In this document: one piece after another, positions 24,336-25,796 of the stretch
Numbering within the stretch: position 1 is the stretch's first letter
Layout of the letters: every line of letters begins with the position of its first letter
Source: a virus
Taxonomy: Duplodnaviria; Caudoviricetes
Virus record (IMG/VR): IMGVR_UViG_3300037225_000166
Span: 1 to 54,893 of that record
Length of the DNA: 54,893 nt
Reading direction: 5' to 3' (one strand)
The notes under the pieces: model-generated
Databases searched by the model: none
What the model saw: only the letters and a program-made list of their open reading frames with translations
What the model was told of the DNA's origin: nothing
Program-made: the position numbers and the translations under genes

Positions 24336-24455
24336 TTAGTGCGCTTCGTGTAAACGCTAACTTTATAAGTGTGTTATCCTCGATCCCATTCGGGTTAATC
24401 AGGATGAAAGGAGAATGATTTTTCAATATTTAATGAACGTATAAATTACAAAATT

Positions 24456-24677
24456 ATGTTAAAGAGAATTATTAGTTATGTTGTTTTTTGCTTATTAGTA
24501 CTTCCTTACGGAATATATCTTTTCATAAAAGATGAGATATTTATTATTAAACTCAAAAAATCAGACGATTCATCCGTTAAGCGAGATGAGAATAAATGCG
24601 AATGTATACAAATACACAGGACTGAATTTCGAAATAGAATTGAAACCTGTACCTTCTGTAACAAACCTCTAAATTAA
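24456..24677 (+). CDS. Cassette ORF: small TM plus Cys-motif protein
   Basis: N-terminal TM; CEC...CTFC. Confidence 0.5.
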   Translation: MLKRIISYVVFCLLVLPYGIYLFIKDEIFIIKLKKSDDSSVKRDENKCECIQIHRTEFRNRIETCTFCNKPLN

Positions 24678-24703
24678 GCATTTATGAACACGAAGCGGAT
24701 TAA

Positions 24704-24832
24704 CCCGAACGGTTACAGCCTTATTTAGTGCGGGCTTAATAGTACTAACTTACATTTAAAGACAAAAGTTTATGGAAAGCACAAAAGTTGAAAACAGCAC
24801 AAACCCCGCATTGAATAAGGCTGATGTTATAA
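24704..24832 (-). repeat. attC-like hairpin 2
   Basis: CAGCCTTATTTAGTGCGGG / CCCGCATTGAATAAGGCTG, then GTTATAA at 24826. Confidence 0.75.
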
Positions 24833-24990
24833 GAAGGCCGTTTGATGCAGAAATTGACAACGGGAGAATTATGATTTATACGAGCGAGTGGGATGAATTT
24901 GGAGAATTGAAGTGGACTGCGAATATAATATCACCTGAAAGATTTAAGGAGGTTGTAAAGAACTACGAGGCTCTTACGGCTTTCTTATAA
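24772..24990 (+). CDS. Cassette ORF starting inside hairpin 2 and ending at the junction TAA
   Basis: The stop codon is the TAA of TTATAAC at 24985-24991. Confidence 0.55.
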   Translation: MESTKVENSTNPALNKADVIRRPFDAEIDNGRIMIYTSEWDEFGELKWTANIISPERFKEVVKNYEALTAFL

Positions 24991-25393
24991 CGGCCTTCGG
25001 GTAAGAGCAGGTTTGTGTTACGTTTTTAATGAATTTTATATGGATAAAAAATTGGAACAATTTTACTTTAACTGATTAAATAGAACGAAAATGAAAGAAT
25101 TAACAGATCAATTTGAAATTGAAAAATACAAAGAAGAATTAGACGATCATAGAAAAATAGAACAGATGAAAAACAAGGACTATGATTATGACCACAAAGG
25201 GAATATTGAATATTGTTCATGTGGCAGACCGTTAAATTCTCATGGATGGTGTTTCAGATGTGATGGCTAATGCCTAACAATTTTGAAAAAAATTGGGTGC
25301 GGTGGGAAAATTCTTTAAAATAAGTAAAACAAAACTGATGTTAAGTTGCGATACTTTGAGTAACCTCAAACTTGCTTTTACCCGATGTTACAG
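24985..25393 (-). repeat. attC-like hairpin 3 with a gene in its loop
   Basis: TCGGGTAAGAGCAGGTTTG / CAAACTTGCTTTTACCCGA, then GTTACAG at 25387. Confidence 0.65.
25091..25270 (+). CDS. Small zinc-finger protein (59 aa, not in the ORF track)
   Basis: CSCG...CFRC; A-rich leader before the ATG. Confidence 0.5.
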   Translation: MKELTDQFEIEKYKEELDDHRKIEQMKNKDYDYDHKGNIEYCSCGRPLNSHGWCFRCDG

Positions 25394-25511
25394 CCTGCAC
25401 CCATCACGTGATAGGGGTAAAATCGCAACTTATAGCGGTGGCTTACCCGAAGGCCGTTACAGTGCAATAGTGTGAAAGGAGAATGATTTTTTAACTTATA
25501 AAAACTAAAAT

Positions 25512-25796
25512 ATGAAAGAGATTGATAACTTGATTGAAAAATGGGAAAAAGAAGCTGCTAACTATGAGAAAAAATCGTATGAGGCATTTAGGGATTTCAA
25601 AGAACGCAGAACGTTATATGCTTGGACAAAGCAGCTTCGTAAATGTACTAAAGACCTTAAAAAATTAGGCGATTCACACGTAGAGCGTAATGTTTTAATT
25701 GATTTTATAAAAGAATTGAAGAAGGAATTTGCTGATGTCAATTTAGATTACTTAGACTTTGCAGCAGAACGATTCCTAAATCAATTAAAACCATGA
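25512..25796 (+). CDS. Cassette hypothetical protein
   Basis: 94 aa ORF with A-rich leader. Confidence 0.55.
   Translation: MKEIDNLIEKWEKEAANYEKKSYEAFRDFKERRTLYAWTKQLRKCTKDLKKLGDSHVERNVLIDFIKELKKEFADVNLDYLDFAAERFLNQLKP

What the first reader, a model, noticed from the sequence alone, without database searches (positions are those of the whole stretch)
24402..25690. Scaffold pairs at long range into the cassette ORFs with compensatory changes
Seen: in unit A, GGATGAA (24402-24408) can pair with TTCATCC (24569-24575) and TGATTTTT with AAAAATCA (24556-24563). In unit C the equivalents are GTGTGAA (25470-25476) with TTCACAC (25673-25679) and TGATTTTTT with AAAAAATTA (25659-25667). The internal loop (AGGAGAA opposite G[A/G]CGA) and a following AGCG are conserved. 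The 3' strands lie inside otherwise unrelated ORFs and give similar peptides (LKKSDDSSVKR vs LKKLGDSHVER). Inference: a conserved nucleic-acid structure whose loop holds the ORF start, so these ORFs overprint a structured element.
Basis: partly seen in the sequence, partly recalled or inferred. Interest (0 to 1): 0.7.

Follow-up and report, generated by a model that had tools for sequence, protein, structure and literature searches.

The report
Folded gene cassettes in a phage
Two small gene units in a peat-soil phage fold back on themselves in the same way, with matching base changes that keep the pairing, which points to a structured RNA or single-stranded DNA signal built around each gene, although only two copies exist and its job is still unknown.

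Summary
Both stems exist in unit A and unit C. P2 differs at two base pairs, both compensated; P3 has one G-C to G-U change (30 of 30 cells paired). Folded alone, both units give the same three-way junction in the minimum-energy and centroid structures: a closing helix P1, then P2, an AGGAGAA/GRCGA loop and P3 around the ORF start, then a long hairpin P4.

The units lie in a 1.7-kb cluster of long-range inverted repeats (14 perfect repeats of at least 10 nt against 2.15 in shuffles, 0 of 300). The cluster sits just downstream of a promoter-like motif that recurs in this phage.

No third copy turned up in the viral, genome or metagenome collections, so covariation cannot reach significance (n=2). 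ORF C is a real gene, and its only homologue does not keep the shared peptide. ORF A is an orphan with a weak coding signal.

The outer closing helices belong to a wider class of ORF-bracketing repeats with GTTA...TAAC ends. That class also occurs in three IMG/VR phage contigs and in Polaribacter phage P12002L, where attC-like sites have been reported.

Best reading: a plus-strand fold, probably mRNA, of unknown function. A DNA-level cassette signal is a serious rival.

The parts
24145..24159 (+). Promoter-like motif TATTACATTTGTAAT. It contains TAcaTTTG, which fits the Bacteroidota -7 consensus TAnnTTTG (consensus recalled from memory). It would start the transcript just upstream of the structured region.
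   Evidence: 6 matches in the window against 1.64 expected (0 of 100 shuffles reach 6). Four plus-strand copies lie at 5976, 14551, 24145 and 31602.
24233..24390 (+). Domain D1: a G+C-rich leader hairpin without an ORF. It is closed by a perfect 16-bp helix, 24233-48/24375-90. Its 3' arm overlaps the 5' strand of unit A's P1 by 5 nt.
   Evidence: Fold: -73.5 kcal/mol, z -7.5, 0 of 200 shuffles fold as well.
24329..24710 (+). Helix H_A, 24329-51/24688-710: 21 Watson-Crick pairs, 1 G.T and 1 mismatch, with GTTC...GAAC ends. It is an alternative closure of unit A that uses the same 3' strand as P1.
   Evidence: (I4). Pairing probability 0.94 in context.
24386..24712 (+). Unit A. P1 24386-400/24698-712; A24401; P2 24402-08/24569-75; loop AGGAGAA 24409-15 opposite GACGA 24564-68; P3 24416-23/24556-63; AGCG 24580-83; P4 24592-99/24678-85; GAAGCGG 24692-98.
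   Evidence: (minimum-energy and centroid structures, z -2.74).
24456..24677 (+). ORF A (73 aa), an orphan whose coding status is doubtful. Its start lies in the P3 loop. Codons 34-40 carry the 3' strands of P3 and P2.
   Evidence: no homologue; codon score 0.068 per codon.
24716..24991 (+). Domain B1: helix 24716-37/24802-23 has the start of ORF B1 (24772) in its loop. Helix 24826-41/24976-91 (GTTATAAG.../...CTTATAAC) encloses the rest of the ORF.
   Evidence: Fold, z -4.69.
24988..25459 (+). Domain B2 around ORF 25091-25270. It is closed by a perfect 18-bp helix 24988-25005/25442-59, or alternatively by 24997-25015/25367-85. The two arms overlap the neighbouring domains by 4-5 nt (TAAC, CGTTA).
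   Evidence: Fold, z -4.24.
24202..25425 (+). Outermost predicted helices, 24202-10/25417-25 and 24217-35/25387-405. They tie the leader to the stretch just before unit C.
   Evidence: (I11). These are predictions only.
25455..25815 (+). Unit C. P1 25455-68/25802-15 (14/14, CGTTAC.../...GTAACG); A25469; P2 25470-76/25673-79; loop AGGAGAA 25477-83 opposite GGCGA 25668-72; P3 25484-94/25657-67; AGCG 25684-87; P4 25692-705/25778-91; GAAGCGG 25795-801.
   Evidence: (minimum-energy and centroid structures, z -4.10).
25512..25796 (+). ORF C (94 aa), a real gene. Its start lies in the P3 loop. Codons 49-56 carry the 3' strands of P3 and P2. The conserved C-terminal domain carries P4.
   Evidence: homologue P0002; codon score 0.267 per codon.

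Best explanation
Units A and C are two paralogous modules of about 330-360 nt. As a single plus strand, most likely the mRNA made from the promoter-like site at 24145, each folds into the same closed three-way junction.

The parts of the fold are as follows. A closing helix (P1) joins the stretch just upstream of the leader to the stretch just after a conserved GAAGCGG. A two-part clamp (P2, the purine loop AGGAGAA/GRCGA, then P3) pairs the conserved leader with codons 34-40 (unit A) or 49-56 (unit C) of the ORF, so that the start codon sits inside a 130-160-nt loop. A long hairpin (P4) takes up the rest of the ORF.

Shown: the helices exist, they are far beyond chance, they are compensated between the two copies, and the conservation is in nucleotides and not in protein.

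Inferred: the strand that folds is RNA. I also infer the function. The closed form keeps the cistron compact, which would limit translation initiation, protect the ends, or offer a double-stranded processing site. A ribosome that does get through must open P3, P2 and P4.

The outer closures are members of a broader class of repeats with GTTA...TAAC ends that bracket accessory genes in this and other phages.
For: 1. Same architecture in both units in the minimum-energy and centroid structures. For unit C it also holds in a 501-nt context, with pairing probabilities of 0.95-0.99.

2. P2 has 2 pairs changed on both sides (G-C to U-A, A-U to G-C). P3 has one G-C to G-U change. 30 of 30 cells are paired.

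3. P1 is 14/15 in unit A and 14/14 in unit C, although only about half of the letters are shared.

4. The conserved blocks (5' 19-mer, middle block, GAAGCGGATT) are separated by unrelated sequence and are brought together by the fold.

5. The conservation is not at protein level. The 5' strand and GAAGCGG are non-coding. The true homologue of ORF C does not keep the peptide.

6. The region is exceptional. It holds 14 perfect inverted repeats of at least 10 nt against 2.15 in shuffles, and 4 of at least 14 nt against 0.01; 0 of 300 shuffles reach either count. The two most over-structured of 181 600-nt windows in the genome are 24001-24600 and 24301-24900. Each domain folded alone gives z between -2.7 and -7.5.

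7. Strand: all called genes are on the plus strand, and a recurring promoter-like motif lies just upstream. Non-Watson-Crick positions in the 17 listed helices are 12 G.T against 1 A.C. Within the six imperfect repeats found by a DNA-only tool the count is 8 against 1.

8. Six metatranscriptome runs hold part of the stretch, with shares of 0.55, 0.33, 0.22 and 0.09 three times. This is only a hint, because the reads were never laid.

9. A second structured element in the same island (S1 and S2) has 9 of 40 pairs compensated and none broken. Selection for pairing in this island is therefore not a one-off.
Against: - There are only two copies, in one genome. The shuffle control has no power (147 of 500).
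- No homologue of the blocks was found in IMG/VR, in 185,579 species genomes, in the metagenome contigs or in 96 related loci.
- In unit A's real context the thermodynamic model gives P2 a probability of 0.01 and P3 0.28. The conformer with D1, P1, P2 and P3 lies 12.5 kcal/mol above the minimum.
- P1 and P4 are not column-exact in the automatic alignment. They are off by 1 and 2 nt.
- The G.T excess could partly reflect the strong plus-strand G over C skew of the island (0.19-0.25), and the helices were partly chosen from an RNA fold.
- Many arms can pair with more than one partner. That is what repeated DNA motifs in both orientations would also give.
- The homologue P0002 changes the residues encoded by the GRCGA loop and by the P2 strand. 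The motif is therefore not kept with the gene.
- 5'-3' closure is not a general feature of this genome: mean score 19.19 for an ORF's own ends against 18.75 for mismatched ends, 93 ORFs.
Confidence: 0.45

Rival explanations
1. A DNA-level cassette signal. The inverted repeats would be junction elements of a mobile gene-cassette array. They could be attC-like (a CALIN-like cluster), or another site that folds as single-stranded DNA and is recognised by a recombinase or nuclease. The long-range pairing across ORFs would then be a by-product, or the substrate, of cassette exchange. P2 and P3 would be part of such a folded site.
For: - The outer helices start with GTTA or GTTC and end with TAAC or GAAC: B1b, unit C P1, H_A, 29927-41/30020-34 and 30085-101/31153-69.
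- A junction motif, TAACG-N-TCGGGTAAG and its complement, recurs in both orientations.
- The same kind of bracket surrounds homologous C5-methylase genes in only a few of the examined loci: L108, L119 and L112, with L141 a weaker case. There is no general closure across the 63-65 usable of 80 loci. This sporadic spread fits mobility.
- In L119 three closed domains lie in a row.
- Polaribacter phage P12002L has 24-34-nt repeats with GTTAGGC/GCCTAAC, GTTACCC/GGGTAAC and GTTACCT/AGGTAAC around a methyltransferase, a Mom-like gene and another methyltransferase.
- For that phage a paper reports a CALIN with two methyltransferase cassettes and one attC site recombined by IntI1 (PMC9892861; passages and section 3.4 read).
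- The island lies between MuF and the next structural genes and is flanked by direct copies of the promoter motif.
Against: - P2 and P3 are not at cassette borders. Their conserved, non-complementary loop of 7 by 5 nt is not what an inverted duplication gives.
- The polarity is the reverse of attC. Here GTT is at the outer 5' end and AAC at the outer 3' end of a stem that spans an ORF. In attC it is AAC...GTT around a local 57-141-nt hairpin (sizes and RYYYAAC are recalled; GTTRRRY is in the paper).
- A crude scan found no cluster of AAC...GTT hairpins in 24.1-25.9 kb.
- The arms are specific to each cassette over 14-25 bp. Integron recombination at G|TT would leave only 6 nt.
- No integrase, transposase, reverse transcriptase or HNH domain was found in the 50 ORFs scanned against Pfam.
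- G.T mismatches lie on the plus strand. The recombining strand of attC is normally the bottom one (stated in the paper).
- I could not see the paper's supplements, so I cannot say which P12002L repeats are its reported attC sites.
Confidence: 0.25
2. A neutral by-product. Serial local duplications and inverted duplications (template switching) in a fast-changing accessory island left patches of repeated and inverted sequence. These fold well on paper but do nothing.
For: - The copies are confined to one genome.
- Many arms have several possible partners.
- Several arms are perfect (18/18, 16/16, 14/14), as recent events would be.
- ORF A looks like decayed or non-coding sequence.
Against: - Patchy conservation with unrelated sequence in between is not what decay of a duplicate gives.
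- The two P2 differences are compensated across 160-200 nt, between a non-coding strand and a coding strand.
- The internal loop is conserved yet not self-complementary.
- There are 12 G.T against 1 A.C.
- S1 and S2 have 9 compensated pairs and none broken at 69% identity.
- Similar brackets occur in unrelated phages with different arm sequences.
Confidence: 0.15
3. A shared peptide motif. The middle block would be conserved because both proteins need LKK..DS.V.R.
For: The peptides match at 7 of 11 residues in the same frame.
Against: - The real homologue of ORF C keeps only 5 of 11 of these residues.
- The nine nucleotide differences in the 37-nt block fall 3, 3 and 3 on codon positions 1, 2 and 3 (read).
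- The partner strand is non-coding and changes in step.
- ORF A has no homologue and a weak coding signal.
Confidence: 0.03
4. A known catalytic RNA: a self-cleaving ribozyme or a group I or II intron with the ORF in a loop.
For: A three-way junction with conserved junction and loop nucleotides and ORFs in the loops resembles such RNAs.
Against: - No Rfam family matches, even at E up to 10. The large loops could hide a match.
- No split host gene: the C-terminal part of the longer MuF homologue in L004 has no match downstream in the window.
Confidence: 0.02

Closest known systems
attC-like sites and clusters of attC sites without an integrase (CALIN) in virulent phages, e.g. Polaribacter phage P12002L (PMC9892861; passages and section 3.4 read, supplements not seen)
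   Same: - Both are arrays of small accessory genes, including DNA methyltransferases, in a phage of a Bacteroidota-type host.
- The genes are bracketed by inverted repeats whose ends read GTTA.../...TAAC (for P12002L; here).
- Both are thought to act as a folded single strand in which structure matters more than sequence.
   Different: - Here the stems span whole ORFs, with GTT outermost. There is no local AAC...GTT hairpin of 57-141 nt.
- The arms are specific to each cassette.
- The P2/loop/P3 clamp between leader and codons has no counterpart.
- No canonical sites were seen in a crude scan.
- The proper attC models could not be run.
5'-3' UTR pairing that controls an mRNA, e.g. icaR of Staphylococcus aureus (PMC3868564; search listing and start of the abstract only)
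   Same: A cistron is closed by pairing of its leader with a distant downstream stretch of the same mRNA. The proposed effect is on translation and on cleavage of the double-stranded part.
   Different: - There the 3' UTR pairs with the Shine-Dalgarno region itself. Here the AGGAG stays unpaired in an internal loop.
- Only 7 of 93 ORFs of this phage have a Shine-Dalgarno-like word at all.
- Here the partner of the leader is inside the coding sequence.
Fold-back inhibition in hok-type toxin mRNAs (recalled, not read here)
   Same: A long-range 5'-3' helix locks a small ORF into a compact, poorly translated mRNA. Alternative conformers exist.
   Different: No antisense RNA was sought. ORF C is not a small hydrophobic toxin. 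There is no sequence relation.
Processing stalks of rRNA operons cut by RNase III (PMC6582327; search listing and start of the abstract only)
   Same: Sequences on either side of a long insert pair into a stem of about 20 bp that brackets the insert.
   Different: Here the inserts are small protein genes. P1 has only 14-15 bp, while H_A has 22. Cleavage is untested.
Promoter/stem-loop cassettes (PeSL) that shuffle genes in T4-type phages (recalled, not read here)
   Same: Short repeated regulatory modules lie between small accessory ORFs in a hyperplastic region. The R repeats at 25811, 27275 and 30031 look like this.
   Different: PeSLs are direct repeats with local stem-loops. They are not long-range stems across ORFs.

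Membership tests
Any curated RNA family (Rfam 15) | A match at the family's gathering score | tested here: not met
   the only hit in the window is tmRNA_permuted at 3890-4023; nothing relevant in 23900-26300 at E up to 10.
Integron attC site / cassette array (CALIN) | A local imperfect hairpin of about 57-141 nt between ORFs, bounded by ...AAC at the 5' end and GTT... at the 3' end (R'' and R' boxes) | tested here: not met
   A crude scan with a regular expression and folding found no such cluster in 24.1-25.9 kb. The stems here span ORFs and have the opposite polarity.
Integron attC site / cassette array (CALIN) | Cassette ends reading GTT... at the start and ...AAC near the end | tested here: met
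   B1b GTTATAAG/CTTATAAC, unit C P1 GTTAC/GTAAC and H_A GTTC/GAAC. The same holds for L108, L119 and P12002L.
Integron attC site / cassette array (CALIN) | A score with the attC covariance model (IntegronFinder, HattCI) | not testable with these tools
   No attC model is on hand.
Integron attC site / cassette array (CALIN) | An integron integrase nearby (absent by definition in a CALIN) | tested here: not met
   No recombinase domain in the 50 ORFs scanned against Pfam. About 43 mostly small ORFs were not scanned.
5'-3' UTR pairing regulators (icaR type) | A downstream strand pairs with the Shine-Dalgarno sequence | tested here: not met
   AGGAGAA lies unpaired between P2 and P3 in both units.
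5'-3' UTR pairing regulators (icaR type) | The cistron is closed by pairing of leader and 3' end | tested here: met
   P1 in both units. ORFs A and C and the methylase at 30114 are the outliers among 93 ORFs.
hok-type fold-back mRNA | A small hydrophobic toxin ORF plus an antisense RNA | tested here: inconclusive
   ORF A has a hydrophobic N-terminus (read by eye). ORF C does not. No antisense RNA was looked for.
Group I/II intron with an ORF in a loop | A catalytic core and an interrupted host gene | tested here: not met
   No Rfam intron match. No downstream continuation of MuF.
RNase III processing stalk | A duplex of about two helical turns formed by the flanks, and cleavage by RNase III | tested here: inconclusive
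   H_A has 22 bp, B1a 19-22 bp and P1 only 14-15 bp. Cleavage cannot be tested here.
Invertible DNA segment | Inverted repeats plus a recombinase, and both orientations seen in reads | tested here: inconclusive
   Repeats are present. No recombinase was found.

The most novel reading that the evidence does not exclude
Phages of this kind carry an 'ORF-in-a-hairpin' cassette system. Each accessory gene sits in the loop of a long-range stem with GTTA/TAAC feet. That stem serves twice: as the single-stranded DNA handle by which the cassette is moved, and as the mRNA lock that sets its expression. Units A and C add a conserved three-way junction. Its exposed AGGAG loop would be the target of a phage-encoded or host RNA-binding factor or nuclease. 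One candidate, which is pure speculation, is the Barnase/EndoU/RelE-like PBECR2 gene that follows the island at 31798-32190.
Probability: 0.12. Interest if true: 0.8.

Novelty: new variant of a known kind. Interest (0 to 1): 0.5.

Why it matters
If the fold is functional, it is a compact and portable way for a phage to package and control single accessory genes. It is written partly into coding sequence, in a host group that hardly uses Shine-Dalgarno sites.

The link to GTTA...TAAC brackets around methyltransferase and other cassettes in unrelated phages bears on an open question. That question is how small accessory genes (morons) and anti-restriction genes move between phage genomes, and whether the attC-like sites reported in virulent phages are recombination sites, RNA signals or both.

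It is also a caution for annotation. Three open frames over the structured islands (24158-24418, 25293-25475, 28039-28278) and perhaps ORF A are probably not genes.

Tried and rejected
Searches for further copies (all empty or chance only):
- blastn of 24100-25900 against GenBank phages found no match.
- The 19-mer in IMG/VR gave 4 loci, all unrelated ribosome-binding-site-like contexts.
- The pattern CGATTCA-N7-AGCG-N95-120-GAAGCGG in IMG/VR gave 13 loci, all G+C-rich chance hits.
- The tighter pattern gave 22 loci in 185,579 species genomes and 38 in the metagenome contigs. None has a 5' partner for P2 or any similarity to the window.
- None of the blocks occurs in 96 further loci, 434 kb.
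- The own or very near records may have been withheld by the tools.

Relatives by portal protein:
- L004-L006 (41-51% identity) lack the region and lack repeat clusters.

ORF C homologues as a route to DNA:
- No hits in IMG/VR or in GenBank phages.
- The one homologue sits on a 571-nt contig that I could not fetch.

Other leads that gave nothing:
- The sigma-70 promoter and terminator scan was uninformative: 10 sites against 11.7 expected.
- A hammerhead, hairpin-ribozyme or K-turn reading of the junction and loop, done by eye, gave no fit.
- No partners were found for the R1 repeat arms or for a closure of the YopX gene.
- ORF A against the zinc-ribbon-like tail of ORF 26489-26812 was not significant (E 2.2).
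- Minus-strand folding: the plus strand folds better by 17-25 kcal/mol per 600 nt here, but the genome mean is already -9.5 with sd 15.4. This does not discriminate.
- There is no GC-skew turning point near 24 kb, so no sign of an origin of replication.
- General 5'-3' closure of the methylase family is not supported: 18.72 against 18.32 over 65 loci, and 23.67 against 22.84 over 63 entries (62 usable loci plus the window).
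Full report
**Context.** The window is a complete 54,893-bp IMG/VR phage record. All called genes lie on the plus strand. The host looks like a Bacteroidota: only 7 of 93 ORFs have a Shine-Dalgarno-like word, and the gene leaders are A/T-rich. By coded run listings it occurs in peat and permafrost samples.

The finding lies just after the small terminase (18752-19369), the ORF the list suggests is the large terminase (19804-21330), the portal (21830-23266) and a short MuF-like head protein (23479-24105). 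From 24106 to about 31600 runs an island of small ORFs, a YopX gene and two DNA methyltransferases. After it come a PBECR2 nuclease-like ORF (31798-32190) and further structural genes.

The island opens with TATTACATTTGTAAT at 24145. That word recurs at 5976, 14551 and 31602 on the plus strand, giving 6 matches in all against 1.64 expected. It fits the Bacteroidota -7 promoter element as I recall it.

**The observation.** All stated letters and coordinates are right.
- Unit A: P2 7/7, P3 8/8.
- Unit C: P2 7/7, P3 10 Watson-Crick pairs plus one G.T.
- On the MAFFT alignment of the two units RNAalifold finds P2 and P3 by itself.
- The pair count gives 30 of 30 cells paired, two pairs changed on both sides (G-C to U-A, A-U to G-C) and one changed on one side (G-C to G-U). 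Slid controls give 33-60% pairing and no compensated pair.
- With two rows the shuffle control cannot discriminate (147 of 500).

**The rest of the fold.** Folded alone, each unit gives the same three-way junction in both the minimum-energy and the centroid structure (z -2.74 and -4.10). In order, the fold runs:
- P1, which is 14/15 in unit A and 14/14 in unit C;
- one unpaired A;
- P2, the AGGAGAA/GRCGA loop and P3, with the ORF start in the loop;
- a junction containing AGCG;
- a long hairpin P4 over the 3' half of the ORF;
- GAAGCGG, and then the 3' strand of P1.

The distance from the 3' strand of P3 to the 3' strand of P1 is the same in both units to within one base (repeat spacings 1104 and 1103).

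P1 shares about half of its letters between the units, and the other positions differ on both strands. However, the register differs by one column in the automatic alignment, and P4 by two. I therefore count these as helices at equivalent places and not as strict covariation.

**Nucleotide constraint, not protein constraint.**
- The 5' strands, and GAAGCGG in unit A, are non-coding. In unit C GAAGCGG overlaps the stop codon.
- ORF C has one homologue among 5.8 billion proteins (P0002, 48% identity). Its last 35 residues are nearly identical (33 of 35). In the stretch that carries the 3' strands of P3 and P2 it reads LKNINGLSVER against LKKLGDSHVER. The gene therefore does not need that peptide.
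- The nine differences in the 37-nt middle block fall evenly on the three codon positions (read).
- ORF A has no homologue by either search. Its codon score (0.068 per codon) resembles that of the three spurious frames over the structured islands (0.02-0.07) and not that of the neighbouring small genes (0.16-0.29).
- Three of the five substitutions in the conserved tail of P0002 (I63S, D64G, Q91R) lie at facing positions of P4. That would fit compensation, but without the DNA it is only a lead.

**Surroundings.** The units are part of a 1.7-kb cluster of long-range inverted repeats.
- There are 14 perfect repeats of at least 10 nt against 2.15 in dinucleotide shuffles, 6 of at least 12 nt against 0.14, and 4 of at least 14 nt against 0.01. 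None of 300 shuffles reaches any of these counts.
- The two most over-structured of 181 600-nt windows in the genome are here.
- The cluster can be read as a chain of closed domains: D1, unit A, B1, B2, unit C. Their closing arms overlap by 4-5 nt. Each domain is significant when folded alone (z -7.5, -2.7, -4.7, -4.2, -4.1).
- Several arms have two possible partners. In unit A a 22-bp helix (24329-51/24688-710) outcompetes P1, and with a local hairpin it also outcompetes P2 (pairing probability 0.01).
- That leaves two possibilities. Unit A may toggle between two states, since co-transcriptional order favours D1, then P2/P3, then P1. Alternatively its P2 may not form in vivo.

**Which strand, RNA or DNA?** Non-Watson-Crick positions in the 17 helices are 12 G.T, 1 A.C and 5 others. 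Counting only the imperfect repeats found by the DNA tool gives 8 against 1. That favours the plus strand as the strand that folds.

Together with the promoter-like site and the gene direction, this points to mRNA. The caveats are the strong G over C skew of the island and the partial choice of helices from an RNA fold. Six RNA runs hold part of the stretch, but I could not lay reads.

**A wider class.** Three ORFs of 93 stand out for complementarity between leader and 3' end: A, C and the C5-methylase at 30114-31178. The methylase is bracketed by 30040-55/31208-23 and by a perfect 17-bp pair, GTTATTTTTAAAACTTT/AAAGTTTTAAAAATAAC.

Many outer helices here begin GTTA or GTTC and end TAAC or GAAC.

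I examined 80 IMG/VR loci that encode homologues of that methylase (41-52% identity). There is no general closure: 65 usable loci give 18.72 against 18.32, and a wider window gives 23.67 against 22.84 over 63 entries (62 usable loci plus the window). A few loci do carry the same kind of bracket, with quite different arms:
- L108: GTTATGCCTCGCTTA/TAAGTGAGGCATAAC, and on the ORF upstream GTTAGGTGCAGTGCC/GGCATTGCACCTAAC.
- L119 and L112: GTTAGCGGAAGTGCC/GGCATTTCCGCTAAC.

L119 comes from a complete 49.6-kb phage. It has three closed domains in a row, one of which folds like a unit with its ORF in the loop (z -3.27).

Polaribacter phage P12002L shows 24-34-nt brackets with GTTAGGC/GCCTAAC, GTTACCC/GGGTAAC and GTTACCT/AGGTAAC around a methyltransferase, a Mom-like gene and another methyltransferase. 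[quoted passage not shown]

This makes a DNA-level cassette signal a serious rival for the outer helices. Several points count against it as the full answer for the finding:
- The polarity is the reverse of attC.
- The arms are specific to each cassette.
- A crude scan finds no canonical sites in 24.1-25.9 kb.
- No recombinase domain was seen in the 50 ORFs scanned against Pfam.
- P2 and P3 lie inside the cassette, not at its border.

**Verdict.** The pairing is real and non-random, and it is compensated between two copies. It is one layer of a larger system of ORF-bracketing stems.
- It is most likely a plus-strand fold of the mRNA that closes each cistron (confidence 0.45). Its effect (translation, stability or processing) is inferred and not shown.
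- A role as a folded DNA cassette signal comes next (0.25).
- A neutral by-product of local rearrangements is third (0.15).
- No known RNA family matches.
- I file it as a new variant of a known kind, long-range cis-acting structure around a cistron. Interest is moderate, because the evidence is from one genome and is purely computational.

Noticed in passing
window 28078-28216 and 31211-31347 (weak third copy at 29912-30036): Two copies of a G+C-rich structured element of about 135 nt (S1 and S2, 69% identical). One lies before the N6/N4 methylase and the other after the C5 methylase. RNAalifold gives 40 pairs, 9 of them changed on both sides and none broken. Frame-shifting indels show it is non-coding, so ORFs 28039-28278 and 31187-31369 are probably spurious. 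There is no Rfam match, and its core pattern has no copy in IMG/VR.
   Followed up: partly
window 30040-30055/31208-31223 and 30085-30101/31153-31169: The C5-cytosine methylase gene (30114-31178) is bracketed by two nested long-range helices: 16 nt at 94% complementarity and 17 nt perfect, the latter with GTTAT...ATAAC ends. It has the strongest leader-to-3'-end complementarity of 93 ORFs.
   Followed up: yes
window 25811-25893, 30031-30113, 27275-27303: An intergenic repeat R (87% identity between the two long copies). It starts TAACGATCA and ends in TTTAGGAGGGATTTT. In the copy at 30031 this supplies the only clear Shine-Dalgarno site plus ATG of the island.
   Followed up: partly
window 5976, 14551, 24145, 31602 (+) and 4309 (-): The recurrent word TAYTACATTTGTAAT is probably the phage's promoter. 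The copies at 24145 and 31602 flank the accessory island as direct repeats. The copies at 4309(-) and 5976(+) form a 17-bp inverted pair around ORF 4868-5905.
   Followed up: partly
window 3829-4288: ARAGORN calls a permuted tmRNA with a tag peptide. Rfam tmRNA_permuted just reaches its threshold at 3890-4023 (47.4 bits against 47). This would be a phage-borne tmRNA-like gene.
   Followed up: no
window 23479-24105 and 31798-32190; L004 7569-8945: The MuF-like protein here has 208 aa, while its relative in L004 has 458 aa. The extra C-terminal part has no match in the window. A PBECR2 (Barnase/EndoU/RelE-like) ORF follows the island. The 7.5-kb island thus sits inside the head-morphogenesis module.
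   Followed up: partly
L119 1483-2512, 2516-2688, 3369-3776; L108 722-1371, 1490-2518; L179 (P12002L) 29225-30023, 37252-38049, 38087-38882: Other phages carry ORFs bracketed by long inverted repeats with GTTA...TAAC ends, next to or around methyltransferase genes. Short words at their junctions resemble words in this window. For example, GGGTGCGGTGGG follows an ORF stop both at window 25297 and at L119 3741 (seen by eye).
   Followed up: partly
window 24158-24418 and 25293-25475: Open frames of 86 and 60 codons lie entirely over structured, G+C-rich non-coding islands. Their codon scores are 0.02 and 0.07, so they are probably not genes.
   Followed up: yes
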